The notes below the pieces were generated by a model. The model did no database searches. It saw only the letters and a program-made list of their open reading frames with translations, and was not told the origin of the DNA. From NCBI RefSeq assembly GCF_013167455.1, contig NZ_CP038328.1: a DNA stretch of 64,000 nucleotides, one strand, 5' to 3'. Origin of the DNA: Escherichia coli O157:H7. GTDB lineage: Bacteria; Pseudomonadota; Gammaproteobacteria; Enterobacterales; Enterobacteriaceae. Positions within the stretch are counted from its first letter, which is position 1. The number at the start of each line of letters is the position of its first letter. The translations under genes and the position numbers were made by a program. Below, one piece after another: positions 54,405-61,045 of this stretch.

Positions 54405-55292
54405 ATGGATGCAAAACAAACGCGGCAGGGCGTATTACTCGCTCTTGCCGCTTATTTTATTTGGGGTATAGCCCCAGCGTACTTCAAGTTGATTTACTAC
54501 GTGCCCGCCGATGAGATCCTGACGCATCGCGTGATCTGGTCGTTTTTCTTTATGGTGGTGCTGATGAGCATTTGCCGCCAGTGGTCCTATTTAAAAACGC
54601 TGATTCAGACGCCACAGAAAATTTTTATGCTGGCAGTCTCTGCCGTGCTGATTGGTGGCAACTGGCTACTGTTTATCTGGGCGGTGAACAATCACCATAT
54701 GCTGGAAGCGAGCCTTGGTTACTTTATTAACCCGCTGGTGAACATTGTGCTGGGGATGATTTTCCTCGGCGAGCGATTCCGCCGGATGCAATGGCTGGCG
54801 GTGATTCTGGCGATATGTGGCGTGTTAGTCCAGCTGTGGACTTTTGGTTCGCTACCTATTATCGCGCTGGGGCTGGCATTTAGTTTTGCCTTCTACGGCC
54901 TGGTGCGCAAGAAGATTGCGGTAGAAGCACAAACCGGCATGTTAATTGAAACCATGTGGCTGCTGCCCGTGGCGGCGATTTACCTGTTTGCTATTGCCGA
55001 CAGCTCAACCAGCCATATGGGGCAAAACCCGATGTCGCTGAATTTACTGCTGATCGCCGCCGGTATTGTCACTACCGTACCGCTGTTGTGTTTTACCGCC
55101 GCTGCCACGCGCCTTCGTCTCTCAACGTTAGGCTTTTTCCAGTACATTGGCCCGACGCTGATGTTCCTGCTGGCTGTGACGTTTTATGGTGAAAAACCGG
55201 GTGCCGATAAGATGGTGACTTTCACCTTTATTTGGGTGGCGCTGGCAATTTTTGTGATGGATGCGATTTATACGCAGCGTAGAAAAAGTTAA
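54405..55292 (+). CDS. rarD: EamA/DMT-family transporter RarD
   Basis: 295 aa MDAKQTRQGVLLALAAYFIWGIAPAYFKLIYYVPADEILTHRV... Confidence 0.95.
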   Translation: MDAKQTRQGVLLALAAYFIWGIAPAYFKLIYYVPADEILTHRVIWSFFFMVVLMSICRQWSYLKTLIQTPQKIFMLAVSAVLIGGNWLLFIWAVNNHHMLEASLGYFINPLVNIVLGMIFLGERFRRMQWLAVILAICGVLVQLWTFGSLPIIALGLAFSFAFYGLVRKKIAVEAQTGMLIETMWLLPVAAIYLFAIADSSTSHMGQNPMSLNLLLIAAGIVTTVPLLCFTAAATRLRLSTLGFFQYIGPTLMFLLAVTFYGEKPGADKMVTFTFIWVALAIFVMDAIYTQRRKS

Positions 55293-55338
55293 GAATTAAC
55301 ATGGGTAGGCCGTTTAAAGAGCCTACCCACTGACTTAT

Positions 55339-55653
55339 TTATCTTTTTTTGAAAAAAATTAAGATAAGAAAAAGAACAATATTTGTTACAGGAAATCCCC
55401 CCAAAACTCCCCAGTACTTACTCCATCCTAGAGACATCGTATATCTACCAAGGATTTGACAAAACCCAAAACTTAACCCTATACCTATACTTCTTAAATT
55501 TAATGTCGTAGTCAGGCTTAAAATAAATAGAACAAGGATGGTAATAGCCCACCACAATAACCATGCCTTAACAAAATCAGATTTTTTGCTGTAAGGTTCT
55601 TTACCCAAGAACAACTGCCAAAAGTTACCATTTCCCATATAGAATCCATTCAC
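55339..55653 (-). CDS. Hypothetical small membrane protein (104 aa, about 3 predicted TM helices)
   Basis: Open frame in very AT-rich DNA where stops are frequent by chance; hydrophobic segments AWLLWWAITILVLFILSL, IGIGLSFGFCQILG, VTNIVLFLILIFF; no family assigned. Confidence 0.55.
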   Translation of the reverse strand: MNGFYMGNGNFWQLFLGKEPYSKKSDFVKAWLLWWAITILVLFILSLTTTLNLRSIGIGLSFGFCQILGRYTMSLGWSKYWGVLGGFPVTNIVLFLILIFFKKR

Positions 55654-55776
55654 CCAAGATATTGTTTATAGAATAAAAATACATTCCAATTATATTTAAT
55701 TAAAATATACCCCATCAATAAAAACTTACACACTCTAAATTACTACTGTATAGTTATCAATGCAAAGACTGCTATA

Positions 55777-55794
55777 TTGCATATATATATGCAA
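55777..55794. promoter_or_regulatory. Perfect 18-bp palindrome in divergent promoter region
   Basis: TTGCATATATATATGCAA is its own reverse complement; lies between the divergent 104-aa and 128-aa ORFs. Confidence 0.4.
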
Positions 55795-55853
55795 ACCACA
55801 TAATTCAGGTAATATATATTCAAAACAATTATATATATAAAACAATGTAAAAA

Positions 55854-56240
55854 ATGTTCAAATCATCCATCAGAAATATATTCTACCCATCCAAGCTTGA
55901 GCGTTTATCACGCTTTCAGTTCATAATCTATACATTAACATCATGGTCAATATTAATAACTTTGAATGATATCAACCTGGCTTTGAGTTTTATTCTGGTT
56001 ATTAATAATACCTATGTAAATATCAATATTGGAGCAAAAAGAATAAGAGATACTGGATGTAAGGCAATCTACTTTGTATTGATTTCATTGGGTTTGACAC
56101 TTTTTTCTATTATCTCTGCAGCAATTGAAGGGGTGAGATGTGAGTCATTAAGCGTCCAACTCAACGTGGCATGGATATTATTCACAACAATTATGTTATC
56201 TGCGATTCCCTCTGCTAAAATGTCGCTGTCAGCACACTAA
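55854..56240 (+). CDS. Hypothetical inner-membrane protein, DUF805(YhaH)-like (128 aa)
   Basis: ORF in AT-rich DNA; motifs LERLSRFQF and KRIRDTGCKA resemble the DUF805 signature (GRxxRKEYW ... RRLHDxxxSG) from memory; several TM segments. Confidence 0.6.
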   Translation: MFKSSIRNIFYPSKLERLSRFQFIIYTLTSWSILITLNDINLALSFILVINNTYVNINIGAKRIRDTGCKAIYFVLISLGLTLFSIISAAIEGVRCESLSVQLNVAWILFTTIMLSAIPSAKMSLSAH

Positions 56241-56264
56241 CTTACTCACAGCGACATCGTATAG

Positions 56265-56409
56265 TTACAGCCAGTTCTTGCGCTTAAAGTACAGATACGG
56301 TGCCAGGCCCGCGAGGATCATAAAGATAATCGCGCCTGGGTAGCCGAAACTCCACTTCAGTTCTGGCATAAACTCAAAGTTCATGCCATAGCTGGAGGCA
56401 ATCGGCGTA
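56265..56409 (-). repeat. Duplicated 3' end of corA (gene fragment; direct repeat of 57976-58120)
   Basis: About 145 bp nearly identical to the genuine corA 3' end; encodes ...[44 protein letters not shown] in frame; identity decays toward the inner edge. Confidence 0.9.
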
Positions 56410-56597
56410 GGAAAAAGTTTCCTAATCGGTAAATTCAATATTTTGTTATTAACAATGAGCAAGACCAATCATTAACGACGTTCTCTTCAGAGATGTAATG
56501 AAAAAATGTGAAGTGTACTTCTTTTTTAAATATTTTTTTACCCTAGCATTTGTTCTCAAATTGATATTGAGCTTAAATATAACCAAGGAAAATGTAA

Positions 56598-57446
56598 ATG
56601 AATAACACATTACTTCCATCAATTAATATTCCCTGTACACTTTTCGAAACTATTAGTTTATTTGATAATTATTCTGCTGATGATATGCAATATGGTGATA
56701 TGGTAGAACAAGATTTTCTCTCACTCGGCCTAAGCGATATCTCAGCAAAAGTTGATCCTTACAGACTTATTAAATACCATTTCCCTGGCCCAGGTTCTAT
56801 TAATGTTGCTTTTAGTGCCTCAAGTTCCGGAACAAAAATATCACAACGTGAATGCACTGATATTTTATTTGCAGAAATGAAAGAACTAGCAAAAATGTTT
56901 TCCTTTTTTGGACAATATAAAACACTTATCGAAGATCTGATTGAACATTTTAGATATGGAAATGGCAGCAATTTTCATAGCCAACAATTAAATTTATCTT
57001 TTCATGAAAAAATAAATAAATATGGTTATAATAGTCCAATACGAATAATCAAAGAATGTATCGAAAATGGCATTAATTCAACTCCCTCGACAGGATACCA
57101 ACCTCTTATCCTGCAAAGCATTAAAACCAAATTACTTTCATCAAGACTAAATAAATTTAATGACTTCGAGGACAGTTTTAATGGCTTAGGAATCAGTGTT
57201 CATGATATTTCAGCTCAAAAAATATCTCTTTTAAGTTTTCAAAAATACGCTATAGGATGGAGTGCAACAATTCATTTTGTAGCACAGGACCACTTCGGTC
57301 TTGATGTAACTGATATCAAAAACAAGACTTACAGCAAATATAGATTTTTTCGCATATGGTTCTTTTTACAACGGCATAAAGACTTTGCTTTCAAACCTTT
57401 TTTCACCAATTTTAACACTATCGAAAGAATCGAAAATTATCTATGA
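56598..57446 (+). CDS. Hypothetical protein, 282 aa, no signal peptide, no recognised family
   Basis: 849-nt ORF in about 30% GC DNA (estimated by eye), which is improbable by chance; AAGGA SD 9 nt upstream of ATG; stop overlaps next ORF start (ATGA). Confidence 0.8.
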   Translation: MNNTLLPSINIPCTLFETISLFDNYSADDMQYGDMVEQDFLSLGLSDISAKVDPYRLIKYHFPGPGSINVAFSASSSGTKISQRECTDILFAEMKELAKMFSFFGQYKTLIEDLIEHFRYGNGSNFHSQQLNLSFHEKINKYGYNSPIRIIKECIENGINSTPSTGYQPLILQSIKTKLLSSRLNKFNDFEDSFNGLGISVHDISAQKISLLSFQKYAIGWSATIHFVAQDHFGLDVTDIKNKTYSKYRFFRIWFFLQRHKDFAFKPFFTNFNTIERIENYL

Positions 57447-57934
57447 AAAGCAAACTCCAAAAAATTATATTATGTTTATTTCTTCTATGCTGCATCTATA
57501 ATTTATGGACATTGCGTCCTGTACAGATTTTGTATACATACTCTGATGCTGGCAATTCAGTCTTTCTGGTCGTTGATCATCTGCCATGGACTGACAGCGA
57601 TAAAATAAATTGGTATCTGAAGCATCAGAATGAAATTAAAAATCAACATCCCCTACCAGAAGGTAGTTGGCATACCTGGTATGTCATTGATATCGGTAAT
57701 GGCTTCACTGACTATAAAAAATATATCGAAGGGCCGTATGAAGATCTCTACTGTTTCCCGACAATTAAGAGCAATGATAATTGCATCACGAAAAATTACT
57801 TAATGGTTATTAATGAATACCCTTATCGTAACACTCATATTGGTATTAACGATTTTACTGAGTATCAATTAACACAAGAAAATAAAATAGAGCAAGTTTT
57901 CAATCCGCATAACTTTAAAAAAGACAATTTTTAG
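57443..57934 (+). CDS. Hypothetical membrane-anchored or secreted protein, 163 aa
   Basis: N-terminal K-rich then hydrophobic stretch (MKSKLQKIILCLFLLCCIYNLWTL) typical of signal peptide/anchor; translationally coupled to upstream ORF; ends 41 nt before convergent corA stop. Confidence 0.75.
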   Translation: MKSKLQKIILCLFLLCCIYNLWTLRPVQILYTYSDAGNSVFLVVDHLPWTDSDKINWYLKHQNEIKNQHPLPEGSWHTWYVIDIGNGFTDYKKYIEGPYEDLYCFPTIKSNDNCITKNYLMVINEYPYRNTHIGINDFTEYQLTQENKIEQVFNPHNFKKDNF

Positions 57935-57975
57935 AAATAAGCCGGATAAAAAAATAGCTTTATCCGGCACTCATA

Positions 57976-58926
57976 TTACAACCAGTTCTTCCGCTTAAAG
58001 TACAGATACGGTGCCAGGCCCGCGAGGATCATAAAGATAATCGCGCCTGGGTAGCCGAAACTCCACTTCAGTTCTGGCATAAACTCAAAGTTCATCCCGT
58101 AGCTGGAAGCAACCAGCGTTGGCGGCAGGAACACGACGGATACCACCGAGAAAATTTTGATGATGCGGTTCTGCTCGATGTTGATAAAACCCATTGCCGC
58201 CTGCATCAGGAAGTTCACCTTCTGGAACAGGGATTCGTTATGCGGCAGCAGGGATTCGATATCTCGCAGGATTTCACGCGCCTGCTCCAGTTGCCCACCC
58301 GGTAAGCGTGCTTTACGTACCAGGAAGTTGAGCGCGCGCTGGGTATCCATCAGACACAGGCGCACTTTCCAGCCGATATCTTCCAGTTCCGCCAGAGTGG
58401 AGAGCGCCTCGTCGTACTCATCGCCCTGATGCCCTTCCATAATCACCCGGCTCAATTGCTCCAGGTCGCTATAGATATTTTCAATTTCATCTGCCAACTG
58501 TTCGATTTTGGTTTCGAACAGATCCAGCAGCAACTCGTAGGCGTTACCGTCTACCATCGACTGGCTACGGGCACGCATACGATACAGACGAAAAGCGGGC
58601 AGTTCACGCTCACGCAGAGTAAACAGACGACCATCACGGATGGTAAATGCCACAGTGGAGTTACCGGCGTGATCTTCCGCATCTTCAAAGAAGAAGAAGG
58701 AGTGAATATGCAGGCCGTCATCGTCTTCAAAGAAACGTGCCGATGCTTCGATGTCTTCCAGTTCCGGGCGGGTTGCCAGGCTCTGGCCAAGTTCAGATTG
58801 TACGCGCAGTCGCTCGTCGTCGTCCGGTTCGACAAGATCAATCCATACTGCATTTACAAGGGGTTGTGACTCTTCGACTTCCAGCCGGGTCAGTCGGTTA
58901 TTTTCCAGTTGAAATGCGCTCAGCAT
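57976..58926 (-). CDS. corA: Magnesium/cobalt transporter CorA
   Basis: [43 protein letters not shown]... with [10 protein letters not shown] signature near C-terminus; 316 aa. Confidence 0.96.
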
Positions 58927-60142: not shown

Positions 60143-61045
60143 ATGAAAAAAACGCTCGCAACGTTATTTTTATTAACGTGTCTGGGATCATCATCCGCTT
60201 ATGCGGATAACGCTTTGATTTTACAAACTGATTTTAGCCTGAAAGATGGTGCCGTCTCGGCGATGAAAGGGGTCGCATTCGGTGTTGACCATAATCTTAA
60301 AATATTTGATTTAACACACGAAATTCCACCGTATAACATCTGGGAAGGCGCTTACCGCCTGTATCAGACCGCCAGTTACTGGCCGCAAGGTTCGGTATTT
60401 GTCAGTGTGGTCGATCCGGGCGTAGGCACTGACCGTAAATCGATAGTGCTGAAAACCAAAAACGGTCAATACTTCGTTTCACCGGATAACGGTACGCTCA
60501 CTTTGGTGGCGGAATCGCTGGGTATTGAGAGCGTCCGGGAAATCGACGAAAAAGCTAACCGCCTGAAAGGTTCTGAAAAGTCATATACCTTCCACGGTCG
60601 TGACGTGTATGCCTACACCGGTGCACGTCTGGCTTCCGGGGCGATCACGTTCGAGCAGGTGGGGCCTGAGCTTCCTGCAAAGGTTGTCGAACTTTCTTAT
60701 CAGAAAGCAAAAGCAACAAAAGGTGAAGTGAAGGGCAATATCCCGATTCTCGATATTCAGTACGGCAACGTCTGGAGCAATATCAGCGACGAGTTGCTGA
60801 ATCAGGCGGGGATCAAACTCAACGACACGTTGTGTGTGACCATTTCCGAAGGTTCCCGGCAAAAATACGCAGGGAAAATGCCGTATGTCGCAAGCTTCGG
60901 CGATGTGCCGGAAGGACAGCCGATGGTGTATCTGAACAGCTTATTGAATGTTTCCGTGGCGCTGAATATGGATAATTTCGCGCAGAAACATCAGGTTGCG
61001 TCTGGTGCTGACTGGAATATTGATGTGAAGAAATGTGATAAGTAA
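60143..61045 (+). CDS. SAM hydroxide adenosyltransferase-like (DUF62 / chlorinase-fluorinase fold) protein with N-terminal signal peptide
   Basis: 300 aa; signal peptide MKKTLATLFLLTCLGSSSAYA then family motifs QTDFSLKDGAVSAMKGV, VVDPGVGTDRKS, FVSPDNGTLTLV, YGNVWSNISDELLNQAGI (recalled from fluorinase/SalL-type enzymes). Confidence 0.75.
   Translation: MKKTLATLFLLTCLGSSSAYADNALILQTDFSLKDGAVSAMKGVAFGVDHNLKIFDLTHEIPPYNIWEGAYRLYQTASYWPQGSVFVSVVDPGVGTDRKSIVLKTKNGQYFVSPDNGTLTLVAESLGIESVREIDEKANRLKGSEKSYTFHGRDVYAYTGARLASGAITFEQVGPELPAKVVELSYQKAKATKGEVKGNIPILDIQYGNVWSNISDELLNQAGIKLNDTLCVTISEGSRQKYAGKMPYVASFGDVPEGQPMVYLNSLLNVSVALNMDNFAQKHQVASGADWNIDVKKCDK

What the first reader, a model, noticed from the sequence alone, without database searches (positions are those of the whole stretch)
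55293..56264. AT-rich sub-island with two divergent small membrane-protein genes next to rarD
Directly after the rarD terminator hairpin the composition drops sharply and two small ORFs are transcribed divergently (104 aa on minus, 128 aa DUF805-like on plus) from an AT-rich 200-bp control region. From memory, K-12 carries only two small genes (yigG, yigF) in a roughly 0.9-kb rarD-corA interval, whereas here the interval is about 2.7 kb with different organisation. I cannot verify from memory which, if any, of these ORFs correspond to yigF/yigG. Together with the downstream cassette this looks like a variable accessory locus.
Basis: partly seen in the sequence, partly recalled or inferred. Interest (0 to 1): 0.5.

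Follow-up and report, generated by a model that had tools for sequence, protein, structure and literature searches.

The report
AT-rich replacement islet between rarD and corA
This is a real 980-bp stretch of foreign-looking, AT-rich DNA in E. coli O157:H7 that replaces the K-12 genes yigG-yigF with two other small membrane-protein genes, one of them missing from every RefSeq annotation inspected; it is an ordinary variable accessory locus of unknown function.

Summary
The window is E. coli O157:H7. Homology to K-12 stops 8 nt before the rarD stop codon (55284) and resumes at the corA stop codon (56265). The 980 bp between (GC 0.32, against 0.51 for the window) have no DNA match to K-12 yigG-yigF.

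The islet carries two divergent ORFs:
- orf99 (55339-55638, minus strand; Sakai ECs_4748).
- orf128 (55854-56240, plus strand; unannotated in every RefSeq record inspected).

Both are intact and gap-free in 8 divergent alleles. Both show an excess of synonymous change only in the predicted frame (pN/pS 0.23; p=3e-11 and 0.004), so both are real genes.

orf128 is a deep relative of YigG: 22-30% identity, whereas E. coli and Salmonella YigG share 56%. orf99 is a rare orphan. Both look DUF805-like by fold, but neither reaches a significant Pfam score.

The islet occurs in 1463 of 5426 complete E. coli genomes. The rarD-corA slot has at least six haplotypes, built from two independently assorting modules: this islet or yigGF, and a DUF3289/DUF943 colicin-M-like toxin-immunity cassette with a duplicated corA 3' end.

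Function is unknown, and about a quarter of carriers have lost the orf128 start codon. This is a new member of a known kind, of low to moderate interest.

The parts
54405..55292 (+). rarD (flanking core gene). Its last 8 nt (55285-55292) already belong to the variable segment, so O157 RarD ends ...QRRKS (295 aa) and K-12 RarD ends ...QRRTSK.
55285..56264 (.). The 980-bp AT-rich replacement islet (GC 0.319). It is bounded by the loss of K-12 homology at 55284/55285 and its return at the corA stop codon, 56265.
55300..55332 (.). GC-rich hairpin between the convergent ends of rarD and orf99. It is a probable bidirectional terminator and is islet-specific: K-12 has a different sequence here.
   Evidence: (I12)
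55339..55638 (-). orf99 (Sakai ECs_4748, WP_000526425.1): a small membrane protein of 2-3 predicted TM helices. The GTG at 55653 would give 104 aa, but the 5 extra codons vary non-synonymously between alleles, so ATG 55638 is the likelier start.
55639..55853 (.). Divergent intergenic spacer (GC about 0.22). It is the most variable part of the islet: 31% variable columns plus 39 gap columns among 8 alleles. An embedded block at 55717-55762 is better conserved, and weak sigma-70-like sites point both ways.
55854..56240 (+). orf128: a 128-aa predicted 4-helix membrane protein and deep YigG/DUF805-like relative. It has no Shine-Dalgarno sequence and is not annotated in any RefSeq record inspected.
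56220..56259 (-). Hairpin followed by UUUU on the corA-sense strand (-24.6 kcal/mol, z -4.7). It is the corA terminator of the cassette-free arrangement, overlaps the last codons of orf128, and is now stranded behind the corA' fragment.
   Evidence: arrangement in L008
56265..56411 (-). corA' pseudogene fragment: a 147-bp copy of the corA 3' end, 95% identical to 57976-58122. Context, not part of the islet.
   Evidence: (D1)
56412..57975 (+). Separate AT-rich cassette (GC 0.315). It holds a DUF3289/YPO3983-family gene (56598-57446) and a DUF943 gene (57443-57934), then a terminator hairpin at 57941-57968. Context.
   Evidence: PMC11148199
57976..58926 (-). Intact corA (flanking core gene).

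Best explanation
Window 55285-56264 is a horizontally acquired, AT-rich replacement islet. It fills the rarD-corA slot as an alternative to the K-12 yigG-yigF islet.

It encodes two divergently oriented small polytopic inner-membrane proteins with a DUF805-like fold. orf128 is a deeply diverged relative of YigG that lies outside the Escherichia-Salmonella YigG clade. orf99 (ECs_4748) belongs to a very rare family.

Shown:
- The boundaries of the islet.
- The absence of DNA homology to K-12.
- Its presence in about 27% of complete E. coli genomes.
- The modular haplotype structure of the locus.
- Purifying selection on both reading frames.
- Start-codon loss in part of the population.

Inferred:
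- The islet moves between lineages by homologous recombination in the conserved rarD and corA flanks, because it has no mobility genes or terminal repeats of its own.
- Like K-12 yigFG, it is probably weakly or conditionally expressed, H-NS-silenced xenogeneic DNA.
- The proteins act in the inner membrane or envelope. The only phenotype in the family is reduced surface attachment and altered aggregation of a Salmonella yigG deletion mutant.

The molecular activity is not known for any DUF805 protein.
For: Identity and boundaries:
- The window matches O157:H7 genomes at 100%.
- blastn to K-12 stops at 55284 and restarts at 56265.

Composition: GC is 0.319 against 0.511 for the window.

Distribution:
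- Islet in 1463 of 5426 genomes.
- O157-type islet plus cassette in about 1407.
- Islet directly abutting corA in 24, and also in Escherichia sp. MOD1-EC7003.
- yigGF plus cassette in 299.
- Cassette without islet or yigGF in an estimated ~930 (obtained by subtraction).
- A 78.5%-identity yigGF variant.

Coding evidence:
- Both ORFs are intact and gap-free in 8 alleles, while the spacer has 39 gap columns.
- dN/dS is 0.14-0.21.
- Synonymous excess appears only in the predicted frame: orf128 p=3.2e-11, orf99 p=0.004.
- Variable sites by codon position are 16/14/49 for orf128 and 7/3/11 for orf99.

Homology of orf128:
- Against K-12 YigG, 29% identity at E=3e-5.
- NF008474 at E=5.5e-6.
- 22-30% identity to all YigG orthologs, against 56% between K-12 and Salmonella YigG.
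- Foldseek top hits are Salmonella proteins at 48-49% identity, then YigG and DUF805 proteins.

Homology of orf99:
- Only about 5 full-length remote homologs among 1.84 billion representatives.
- One of them (P0116) matches Pfam DUF805 over its full length at E=1.8e-4.
- Foldseek hits are dominated by DUF805 proteins.

No mobility or defence signal: no phage, true plasmid, PADLOC, PHROG or Rfam match.

Literature:
- K-12 yigF/yigG is listed as a promoter island of alien DNA (PMC3661553).
- K-12 yigG carries an H-NS-repressed intragenic promoter (PMC7229825).
- A Salmonella yigG deletion affects attachment (PMC3579871).
Against: - No expression or protein evidence was found. A search for ECs4748, ECs4747 and my guessed EDL933 tags Z5334-Z5336 returned nothing relevant.
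- orf128 has no Shine-Dalgarno sequence.
- orf128 is unannotated in every RefSeq record inspected.
- Its ATG is ATA in at least 351 of 1418 carriers, and an IS1 truncates it in one strain. Selection is therefore relaxed in part of the population.
- The DUF805 assignment is sub-threshold by sequence: E=0.32 for orf128, no hit for orf99, and hhalign between the orf99 and YigG-family alignments is not significant.
- Structure models are only moderately confident (pLDDT 68 and 71.5).
- Helical membrane folds match each other easily.
- H-NS silencing and the recombination route are inferred by analogy, not tested.
Confidence: 0.75

Rival explanations
1. One or both ORFs are not functional genes in O157:H7. 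On this reading they are decaying remnants or chance open frames in AT-rich foreign DNA, and the islet is neutral baggage.
For: - orf128 has no Shine-Dalgarno sequence and is not called by PGAP or in the Sakai record.
- ATG is changed to ATA in at least 351 genomes.
- An IS1 insertion truncates it in strain 13C1079T.
- No family has a known function.
- orf99 differs from the AF3 allele by only 4 changes, which is uninformative (w=0.78).
Against: - Frame-specific synonymous excess: p=3e-11 for orf128 and p=0.004 for orf99.
- No indel or stop in 8 alleles down to 83% DNA identity, while the spacer between them is full of indels.
- Detectable homologs exist, with conserved motifs such as R-[IL]-R-D-[ST]-G.
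- O157:H7 itself keeps the ATG.
Confidence: 0.12
2. The small membrane proteins are orphan immunity or protection factors that work together with the adjacent DUF3289/DUF943 colicin-M-like toxin-immunity cassette. The whole rarD-corA interval would then be a bacterial competition island.
For: - About 96% of islet carriers also have the cassette (about 1407 of 1463), against about 31% of the other genomes.
- DUF3289 is toxic in the periplasm and DUF943 neutralises it (PMC11148199).
- Immunity proteins are often small membrane proteins (my own knowledge).
Against: - The modules assort independently: islet without cassette (24 genomes and Escherichia sp. MOD1-EC7003), cassette with yigGF (299), and cassette with neither.
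- Physical linkage within 1 kb and shared ancestry are enough to explain the co-occurrence.
- DUF943 already supplies the immunity.
- There are no PADLOC hits.
- Remote orf99 homologs have no toxin neighbours.
Confidence: 0.08
3. The interval is simply a fast-evolving vertical allele of yigG-yigF, colinear with K-12.
For: - orf128 is a YigG homolog in the same orientation relative to rarD.
- The sequence just upstream of both start codons shares ATGTAAAA (by eye).
Against: - There is no DNA alignment.
- The partner gene is unrelated to yigF, lies on the opposite strand and sits on the other side of the yigG-like gene.
- orf128 is 22-30% identical to YigG, while Salmonella and E. coli orthologs share 56%.
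- Both types coexist within E. coli with nearly identical flanks (98.7% and 98.5%).
Confidence: 0.03
4. The islet is the remnant of an integrative mobile element or prophage.
For: - Low GC.
- A 147-bp direct repeat of the corA 3' end lies nearby, the pattern left by elements that integrate into gene 3' ends (my own knowledge).
Against: - The repeat brackets the DUF3289/DUF943 cassette, not the islet.
- No integrase or transposase gene and no long terminal repeats (only short low-identity matches) were found in 55285-56264.
- There is no phage match.
- The only 'plasmid' hits are records of 1.0 and 4.8 Mb, which I take to be chromosomal sequence filed as plasmids.
- There are no PHROG hits.
Confidence: 0.02

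Closest known systems
E. coli K-12 yigG-yigF islet (b3818-b3817) between rarD and corA
   Same: - Same chromosomal slot.
- Also AT-rich and regarded as alien DNA (PMC3661553, PMC7229825).
- Also two small membrane-protein genes of about 100-130 aa.
- orf128 is a distant homolog of YigG and shares the S-R-x-x-[FY]-I and R-[IL]-R-D-[ST]-G motifs.
   Different: - No DNA homology.
- The genes are divergent rather than tandem.
- The yigG-like gene is distal to rarD rather than proximal.
- The partner (orf99) is unrelated to YigF/DUF2628.
- orf128 scores 26.5 bits against the 217-bit YigG equivalog cut-off.
Pfam DUF805 (PF05656; E. coli YhaH and YhaI are members)
   Same: - Small proteins of 3-4 TM helices.
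- Foldseek hit lists for both models are dominated by DUF805 proteins.
- A remote orf99 homolog (P0116) matches the DUF805 HMM end to end at E=1.8e-4.
- K-12 YigG matches at E=0.023.
   Different: - Neither O157 protein gives a significant Pfam match (E=0.32, and none).
- The canonical RRLHD-x-G-x-SGW loop (recalled from memory) is only loosely recognisable.
- The function of DUF805 is itself unknown.
DUF3289/DUF943 (YPO3983-family) colicin-M-like toxin-immunity pair
   Same: It is the immediate neighbour (56598-57934), is equally AT-rich, and is also a variable module in the same slot.
   Different: It is a different module with different proteins. It assorts independently of the islet and carries its own corA' fragment. 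It is not part of the finding's coordinates.
Small strain-specific replacement segments from O157:H7 versus K-12 genome comparisons (O-islands and K-islands, S-loops and K-loops)
   Same: A short strain-specific segment that replaces a different K-12 segment at the same backbone position. This is from my own knowledge of the Perna 2001 and Hayashi 2001 comparisons.
   Different: I could not check whether this segment has an island number in those lists. My searches by locus tag found nothing.

Membership tests
YigG (NCBIfam NF008474, equivalog) | Whole-protein score at or above the curated cut-off of 217 bits. | tested here: not met
   orf128 scores 26.5 bits at E=5.5e-6, while K-12 YigG scores 255.6 bits. 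It is homologous but not an equivalog.
YigG (NCBIfam NF008474, equivalog) | Orthologous position and orientation, immediately downstream of rarD on the same strand. | tested here: not met
   The strand is the same, but orf99 lies between rarD and orf128. Identity to every YigG ortholog is 22-30%, against 56% between E. coli and Salmonella.
Pfam DUF805 (PF05656) | Significant match to the family HMM. | tested here: not met
   orf128 gives E=0.32. orf99 gives no DUF805 hit. K-12 YigG gives E=0.023.
Pfam DUF805 (PF05656) | Homology through intermediates, or the same fold. | tested here: inconclusive
   P0116 (36% identical to orf99, phmmer E=3.2e-5) matches DUF805 positions 3-102 of 111 at E=1.8e-4. 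Foldseek lists are dominated by DUF805 proteins, but at E=0.3-2 for orf99 and E>=1.7e-3 for entries named DUF805 in the orf128 list. Models have pLDDT 68-71.5. hhalign between the orf99 family and the YigG family is not significant.
YigF / DUF2628 | Sequence similarity of the second gene to YigF. | tested here: not met
   BLASTP of orf99 against YigF gives E=4.8, and of orf128 against YigF E=6.8.
Integrative genomic island or mobile element | Integrase or transposase gene, flanking direct repeats, or similarity to phage or plasmid DNA. | tested here: not met
   No such ORFs and no repeats bracket 55285-56264. There are no phage, PHROG or PADLOC hits. The only 'plasmid' hits are records of 1.0 and 4.8 Mb, which I take to be chromosomal sequence filed as plasmids.
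H-NS-silenced xenogeneic DNA / 'promoter island' | AT content well above the genome background. | tested here: met
   GC is 0.319 for the islet and 0.215 for the spacer, against 0.511 for the window.
H-NS-silenced xenogeneic DNA / 'promoter island' | An abnormal density of promoter-like sites. | tested here: not met
   12 sites were found in 55200-58000 against 13.9 +/- 3.4 in dinucleotide-preserving shuffles. There is no excess beyond what composition gives. This is a different algorithm from the one used in PMC3661553.
H-NS-silenced xenogeneic DNA / 'promoter island' | H-NS occupancy and de-repression in an hns mutant. | not testable with these tools
   This needs ChIP-seq or RNA-seq in O157:H7. 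It has been shown only for K-12 yigG (PMC7229825).
DUF3289/DUF943 toxin-immunity pair (neighbouring cassette only) | Match to TIGR03034 (YPO3983 family) above its cut-off, followed by a DUF943 gene. | tested here: met
   The 282-aa ORF scores 439 bits against a 156-bit cut-off. The overlapping downstream 163-aa ORF is named DUF943 by PGAP and carries PF06092 in homologous loci. Toxicity and secretion were not tested here.

The most novel reading that the evidence does not exclude
The rarD-corA slot is a dedicated competition hot spot. On this reading the DUF805-like small membrane proteins (orf99, orf128, and K-12 YigG with its neighbour YigF) are interchangeable protective or immunity factors against envelope-targeting toxins. 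They would be swapped between lineages together with, or in response to, the colicin-M-like DUF3289/DUF943 cassette. That would give the DUF805 family its first function.
Probability: 0.08. Interest if true: 0.55.

Novelty: new member of a known kind. Interest (0 to 1): 0.25.

Why it matters
Three modest points.

1. orf128 is a conserved, selected 128-aa gene that is missing from every RefSeq record I inspected, including O157:H7 Sakai and 86-24. This is a concrete annotation gap in a major pathogen.

2. The rarD-corA slot has at least six haplotypes, built from two independently assorting AT-rich modules. It is a compact natural example of recombination-driven replacement at a fixed backbone site, and could serve as a lineage marker.

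3. Both genes appear to belong to the DUF805 fold, for which no function is known. Naturally exchangeable versions at one locus, some with start-codon loss, offer isogenic material for a phenotype screen.

None of this overturns current understanding.

Tried and rejected
- DNA colinearity with K-12 yigG-yigF: no alignment. Rejected.
- orf99 as a YigF/DUF2628 relative: no similarity. Rejected.
- A direct orf99-YigG family relationship by hhalign: probability 1.2%. Not supported.
- Pfam and NCBIfam naming of orf99: nothing.
- Defence-system, phage-family and RNA-family searches: nothing.
- Phage and plasmid DNA: no phage match, and the only 'plasmid' hits are records of 1.0 and 4.8 Mb, which I take to be chromosomal sequence filed as plasmids.
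- Solved structures: none.
- Genomic context of remote orf99 homologs: short metagenomic contigs with unrelated neighbours and no conserved partner.
- P0026, the 52%-identity hit in a draft assembly: it sits in a locus broken into many tiny ORFs although the DNA is 97% identical to the window. I take it to be an artefact of assembly frameshifts.
- Scan of 100,044 species genomes with the YigG/orf128 profile: it returned only near-identical E. coli-like sequences, three of them in MAG bins labelled Alistipes, Collinsella and Clostridium, plus Escherichia sp. MOD1-EC7003. It did not recover the Salmonella relatives seen by Foldseek, because the single peptide pattern used was narrow.
- Literature search by locus tag (ECs4748, ECs4747, Z5334-Z5336): nothing relevant. 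The Z numbers were my guesses.
- A LexA-box reading of TACTGTATAGTTATCAAT in the spacer: only the first half-site fits by eye. Dropped.
Full report

The 2.75-kb stretch 55250-58000 is 100% identical to many E. coli O157:H7 chromosomes. In window orientation the genes are:
- pldA (minus strand), yigI (plus), rarD (plus, 54405-55292).
- A 99/104-aa ORF on the minus strand (55339-55638, or to 55653).
- A 128-aa ORF on the plus strand (55854-56240).
- A 147-bp corA 3' fragment (56265-56411).
- A DUF3289/YPO3983-family gene (56598-57446) and a DUF943 gene (57443-57934).
- Intact corA (minus strand, 57976-58926).

GC falls from 0.507 in rarD to 0.319 over 55285-56264, and to 0.215 in the 200-bp spacer. 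The ten lowest-GC 980-bp windows of the 64 kb, all at or below 0.32, lie in this interval. The hairpin after rarD (55300-55332) is real, with z about -4.1 on both strands. K-12 has rarD-yigG-yigF-corA in 911 bp, against 2683 bp here.

**Boundaries**

blastn against the K-12 locus aligns up to 55284 (98.7% identity) and again from 56265 and from 57976 (corA). Nothing aligns in between, even with 11-nt words.

- Left breakpoint: eight nucleotides before the rarD stop codon, so the last residues of RarD differ.
- Right breakpoint: exactly at the corA stop codon.

The unit is thus 980 bp (55285-56264). It has its own hairpin shared by the convergent ends of rarD and orf99. It also has a second hairpin, at 56220-56259, which on the corA-sense strand is a good intrinsic terminator (-24.6 kcal/mol, z -4.7, followed by UUUU). 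That hairpin overlaps the last codons of orf128.

In strain AF3 and in Escherichia sp. MOD1-EC7003 the islet abuts the intact corA directly. In that arrangement the second hairpin is the corA terminator. In O157 it is stranded behind the corA' fragment.

**Are the two ORFs genes?**

I compared eight alleles: O157, AF3, a divergent allele from GCA_001660175.1, and five other E. coli taken across the identity range.

- Both ORFs are intact and contain no gap column.
- The spacer between them has 39 gap columns and 31% variable columns.
- Pairwise dN/dS is 0.14-0.17 for orf128 and 0.21 for orf99 between the deep alleles.
- For O157 against the most divergent allele, the synonymous excess is significant only in the predicted frame. 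orf128 gives pN/pS 0.23 at p=3.2e-11, and orf99 gives 0.23 at p=0.004. The two other frames give 0.5-1.3, are not significant, and contain 6-12 stops.
- Variable sites fall 16/14/49 by codon position for orf128 and 7/3/11 for orf99.

Both have therefore evolved as protein-coding genes.

For orf99, the five codons between the GTG (55653) and the ATG (55638) change non-synonymously between alleles, while the ATG is conserved. The 99-aa form used by PGAP and by the Sakai record (ECs_4748, 'membrane protein') is the likelier one.

**Caveats for orf128**

- It has no Shine-Dalgarno sequence: the upstream sequence is AACAATGTAAAAA-ATG.
- It is not annotated in any RefSeq record I inspected, including Sakai and 86-24. 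One search lists 'none' under the match in all 30 rows shown.
- In one common allele class the ATG is ATA, with no alternative in-frame canonical start before codon 37.
- The exact ATA-bearing 52-mer occurs in 351 of the 1418 genomes matched by this 52-mer. Representatives of the other identity classes keep ATG.
- One strain has an IS1 inserted in the 3' end.

The gene is therefore being lost in part of the population. O157:H7 retains the intact form.

**What the proteins are**

orf128:
- It aligns end to end with K-12 YigG at 29% identity (E=3e-5).
- It hits the YigG equivalog model NF008474 at E=5.5e-6, but with 26.5 bits against a 217-bit cut-off.
- It shares the motifs S-R-x-x-[FY]-I, Y-x-x-I-N and R-[IL]-R-D-[ST]-G, plus a conserved E and C.
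- It is 22-30% identical to YigG from E. coli, E. marmotae and Salmonella, which are 51-79% identical to each other. It therefore lies outside the Escherichia-Salmonella YigG clade. It is a xenolog or ancient paralog, not a fast allele.
- Pfam gives only DUF805 at E=0.32. K-12 YigG itself gives E=0.023.
- An AlphaFold model (pLDDT 68) has four long helices.
- Its best Foldseek matches are uncharacterised Salmonella proteins at 48-49% identity (S. enterica subsp. salamae and others), then YigG proteins, then a long run of DUF805 proteins.

orf99:
- It has no Pfam or NCBIfam match.
- Among 5.8 billion clustered proteins it has only near-identical E. coli relatives.
- Among 1.84 billion representatives it has about five full-length remote homologs at 31-45% identity. 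These come from short metagenomic contigs with unrelated neighbours.
- One of them, P0116, matches DUF805 over positions 3-102 of 111 at E=1.8e-4.
- The orf99 model (pLDDT 71.5) retrieves mostly DUF805 proteins, at weak E-values.
- hhalign between the orf99 and YigG alignments is not significant.
- orf99 is unrelated to YigF.

My reading is that both proteins are small inner-membrane proteins of the DUF805 fold. The link is transitive and structural, not a demonstrated family membership.

**The locus in the species**

The 972-bp interval occurs in 1463 of 5426 complete E. coli genomes. It is always chromosomal and single-copy in all but a few genomes (median one place per genome, at most two).

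The neighbouring cassette (56412-57975) occurs in 2632 genomes.

Junction-spanning queries and subtraction give approximate haplotype counts:

| Haplotype | Example | Genomes |
|---|---|---|
| Islet + corA' + cassette | O157 | about 1407 |
| Islet alone | AF3 | 24 |
| yigGF + corA' + cassette | BL21, where yigG is a pseudogene | 299 |
| Cassette after a yigG 5' relic, no corA' | SCU-125, ATCC 25922 | about 930 |
| yigGF alone | K-12 | about 2160 |
| yigGF variant at 78.5% identity | H105 | about 500 |

The two modules therefore assort independently.

The corA' fragment belongs with the cassette. The O157 and BL21 fragments differ at 4 of 147 positions from each other. They differ at 8 to 12 positions from all but one of the intact corA 3' ends compared.

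Within the islet, divergence is mosaic. Between O157 and the GCA_001660175.1 allele:
- dS is 0.14 in orf99.
- dS is about 1.4 in the 5' half of orf128, and the spacer is 66% identical.
- dS is 0.30 in the 3' half of orf128.

This fits repeated recombination among old alleles.

**Mechanism**

The islet has no integrase, transposase or bracketing repeats. It has no phage match, no true plasmid match, and no defence-system, PHROG or Rfam match.

The sharp breakpoints sit at the ends of two highly conserved core genes. The most economical route of spread is therefore homologous recombination in rarD and corA. This is an inference.

The K-12 counterpart is documented as a 'promoter island' of alien DNA (PMC3661553). 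It carries an H-NS-repressed intragenic promoter in yigG (PMC7229825). By analogy I expect this equally AT-rich islet to be H-NS-bound and weakly or conditionally expressed. This was not tested.

Promoter-like hexamer pairs exist in both directions in the spacer, but they are no more frequent than in composition-matched shuffles.

No DUF805 or DUF2628 protein has an assigned function in the literature I could search. The only phenotype in the family is reduced attachment and altered aggregation of Salmonella yigG deletion mutants (PMC3579871). I commit, with low confidence in this last step, to an inner-membrane or envelope-modulating accessory role.

**Rivals**

1. Non-functional remnants. 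The missing Shine-Dalgarno sequence, the missing annotation and the start-codon loss favour this. The frame-specific selection and indel-free conservation argue against it.
2. Orphan immunity factors tied to the DUF3289/DUF943 pair, which has been shown to be a colicin-M-like periplasmic toxin and its immunity protein (PMC11148199). Co-occurrence is 96%, but linkage explains that, and the modules occur apart.
3. A vertical allele of yigGF. This is contradicted.
4. A mobile-element remnant. No supporting feature was found.

**Verdict**

It is a small, strain-variable, horizontally acquired replacement islet that encodes two selected small membrane proteins of unknown function, next to a separate toxin-immunity cassette.

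It is a new member of a known kind. The most useful by-products are:
- The unannotated orf128.
- The six-haplotype structure of the rarD-corA slot.

Noticed in passing
window 56265-56411 and 57976-58122: A 147-bp direct duplication of the corA 3' end (95% identity) brackets the DUF3289/DUF943 cassette. The displaced copy resembles the BL21 fragment (4 differences) more than all but one of the intact corA 3' ends compared (8 to 12 differences), so it travels with the cassette. In GCA_001660175.1 the two copies are identical, which suggests gene conversion.
   Followed up: partly
window 56598-57934: A stand-alone DUF3289 (YPO3983 family, 439 bits) plus DUF943 gene pair, with start and stop overlapping. 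The pair is reported as a colicin-M-like periplasmic toxin and its immunity protein (PMC11148199). It is present in 2632 of 5426 complete E. coli genomes, including BL21 and ATCC 25922, and a few copies are on plasmids. I did not examine whether any T6SS delivers it.
   Followed up: partly
window 55854-56240: orf128 is absent from all RefSeq annotations inspected, although it is under purifying selection. In several genomes the PGAP locus tags skip one number exactly here (for example RS24270 then RS24260, and RS09305 then RS09295). This suggests a gene call that was later withdrawn.
   Followed up: partly
window 55854-55856; L020-L023: The start codon of orf128 is ATA instead of ATG in one common allele class. 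The exact 52-mer occurs in 351 of the 1418 genomes matched by this 52-mer. Strain 13C1079T (L025) has an IS1 inserted in the 3' end of orf128.
   Followed up: yes
window 55639-56033 versus 55339-55638: Divergence within the islet is strongly mosaic. For the same pair of alleles, dS is about 1.4 in the 5' half of orf128 (spacer 66% identical) but 0.14 in orf99. The cause could be recombination among old alleles or something else, and was not resolved.
   Followed up: partly
window 55717-55762: A 46-bp block inside the otherwise hypervariable spacer is conserved between alleles. It contains TACTGTATAGTTATCAAT, whose first half resembles a LexA half-site, and a -35/-10-like pair (CTTACA, 18 nt, TATAGT) facing orf128. 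It may be a regulatory site.
   Followed up: no
fold search result for orf128: The closest relatives of orf128 outside E. coli are uncharacterised proteins of Salmonella enterica subsp. salamae and other Salmonella (A0A6C8YH50 and A0A509CCT8, 48-49% identity). The word-indexed protein search and the genome scan both missed them. Their genomic context is unknown.
   Followed up: no
L027, L028, L029 (genome-contig scan): Contigs 98-99% identical to this E. coli locus sit in species-representative MAG bins labelled Alistipes, Collinsella and Clostridium. This is almost certainly binning contamination.
   Followed up: partly
L011 2595-2975 (BL21(DE3)): yigG is a pseudogene with an internal stop in BL21(DE3). 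That strain carries yigGF together with the corA' fragment and the DUF3289/DUF943 cassette.
   Followed up: no
window about 60143-61045 (downstream of yigE): The gene after yigE is called 'acetolactate synthase' in the Sakai record (ECs_4744) but 'SAM hydrolase/SAM-dependent halogenase family protein' by PGAP in strain 86-24. This is an annotation discrepancy. K-12 shows no gene there in the stretch listed (uvrD is followed directly by yigE).
   Followed up: no
L003 (GCA_002230675.1): This draft assembly has the locus at 97% DNA identity, but broken into many tiny ORFs. It produced a misleading '52% identical' orf99 homolog (P0026), probably through uncorrected indel errors.
   Followed up: partly
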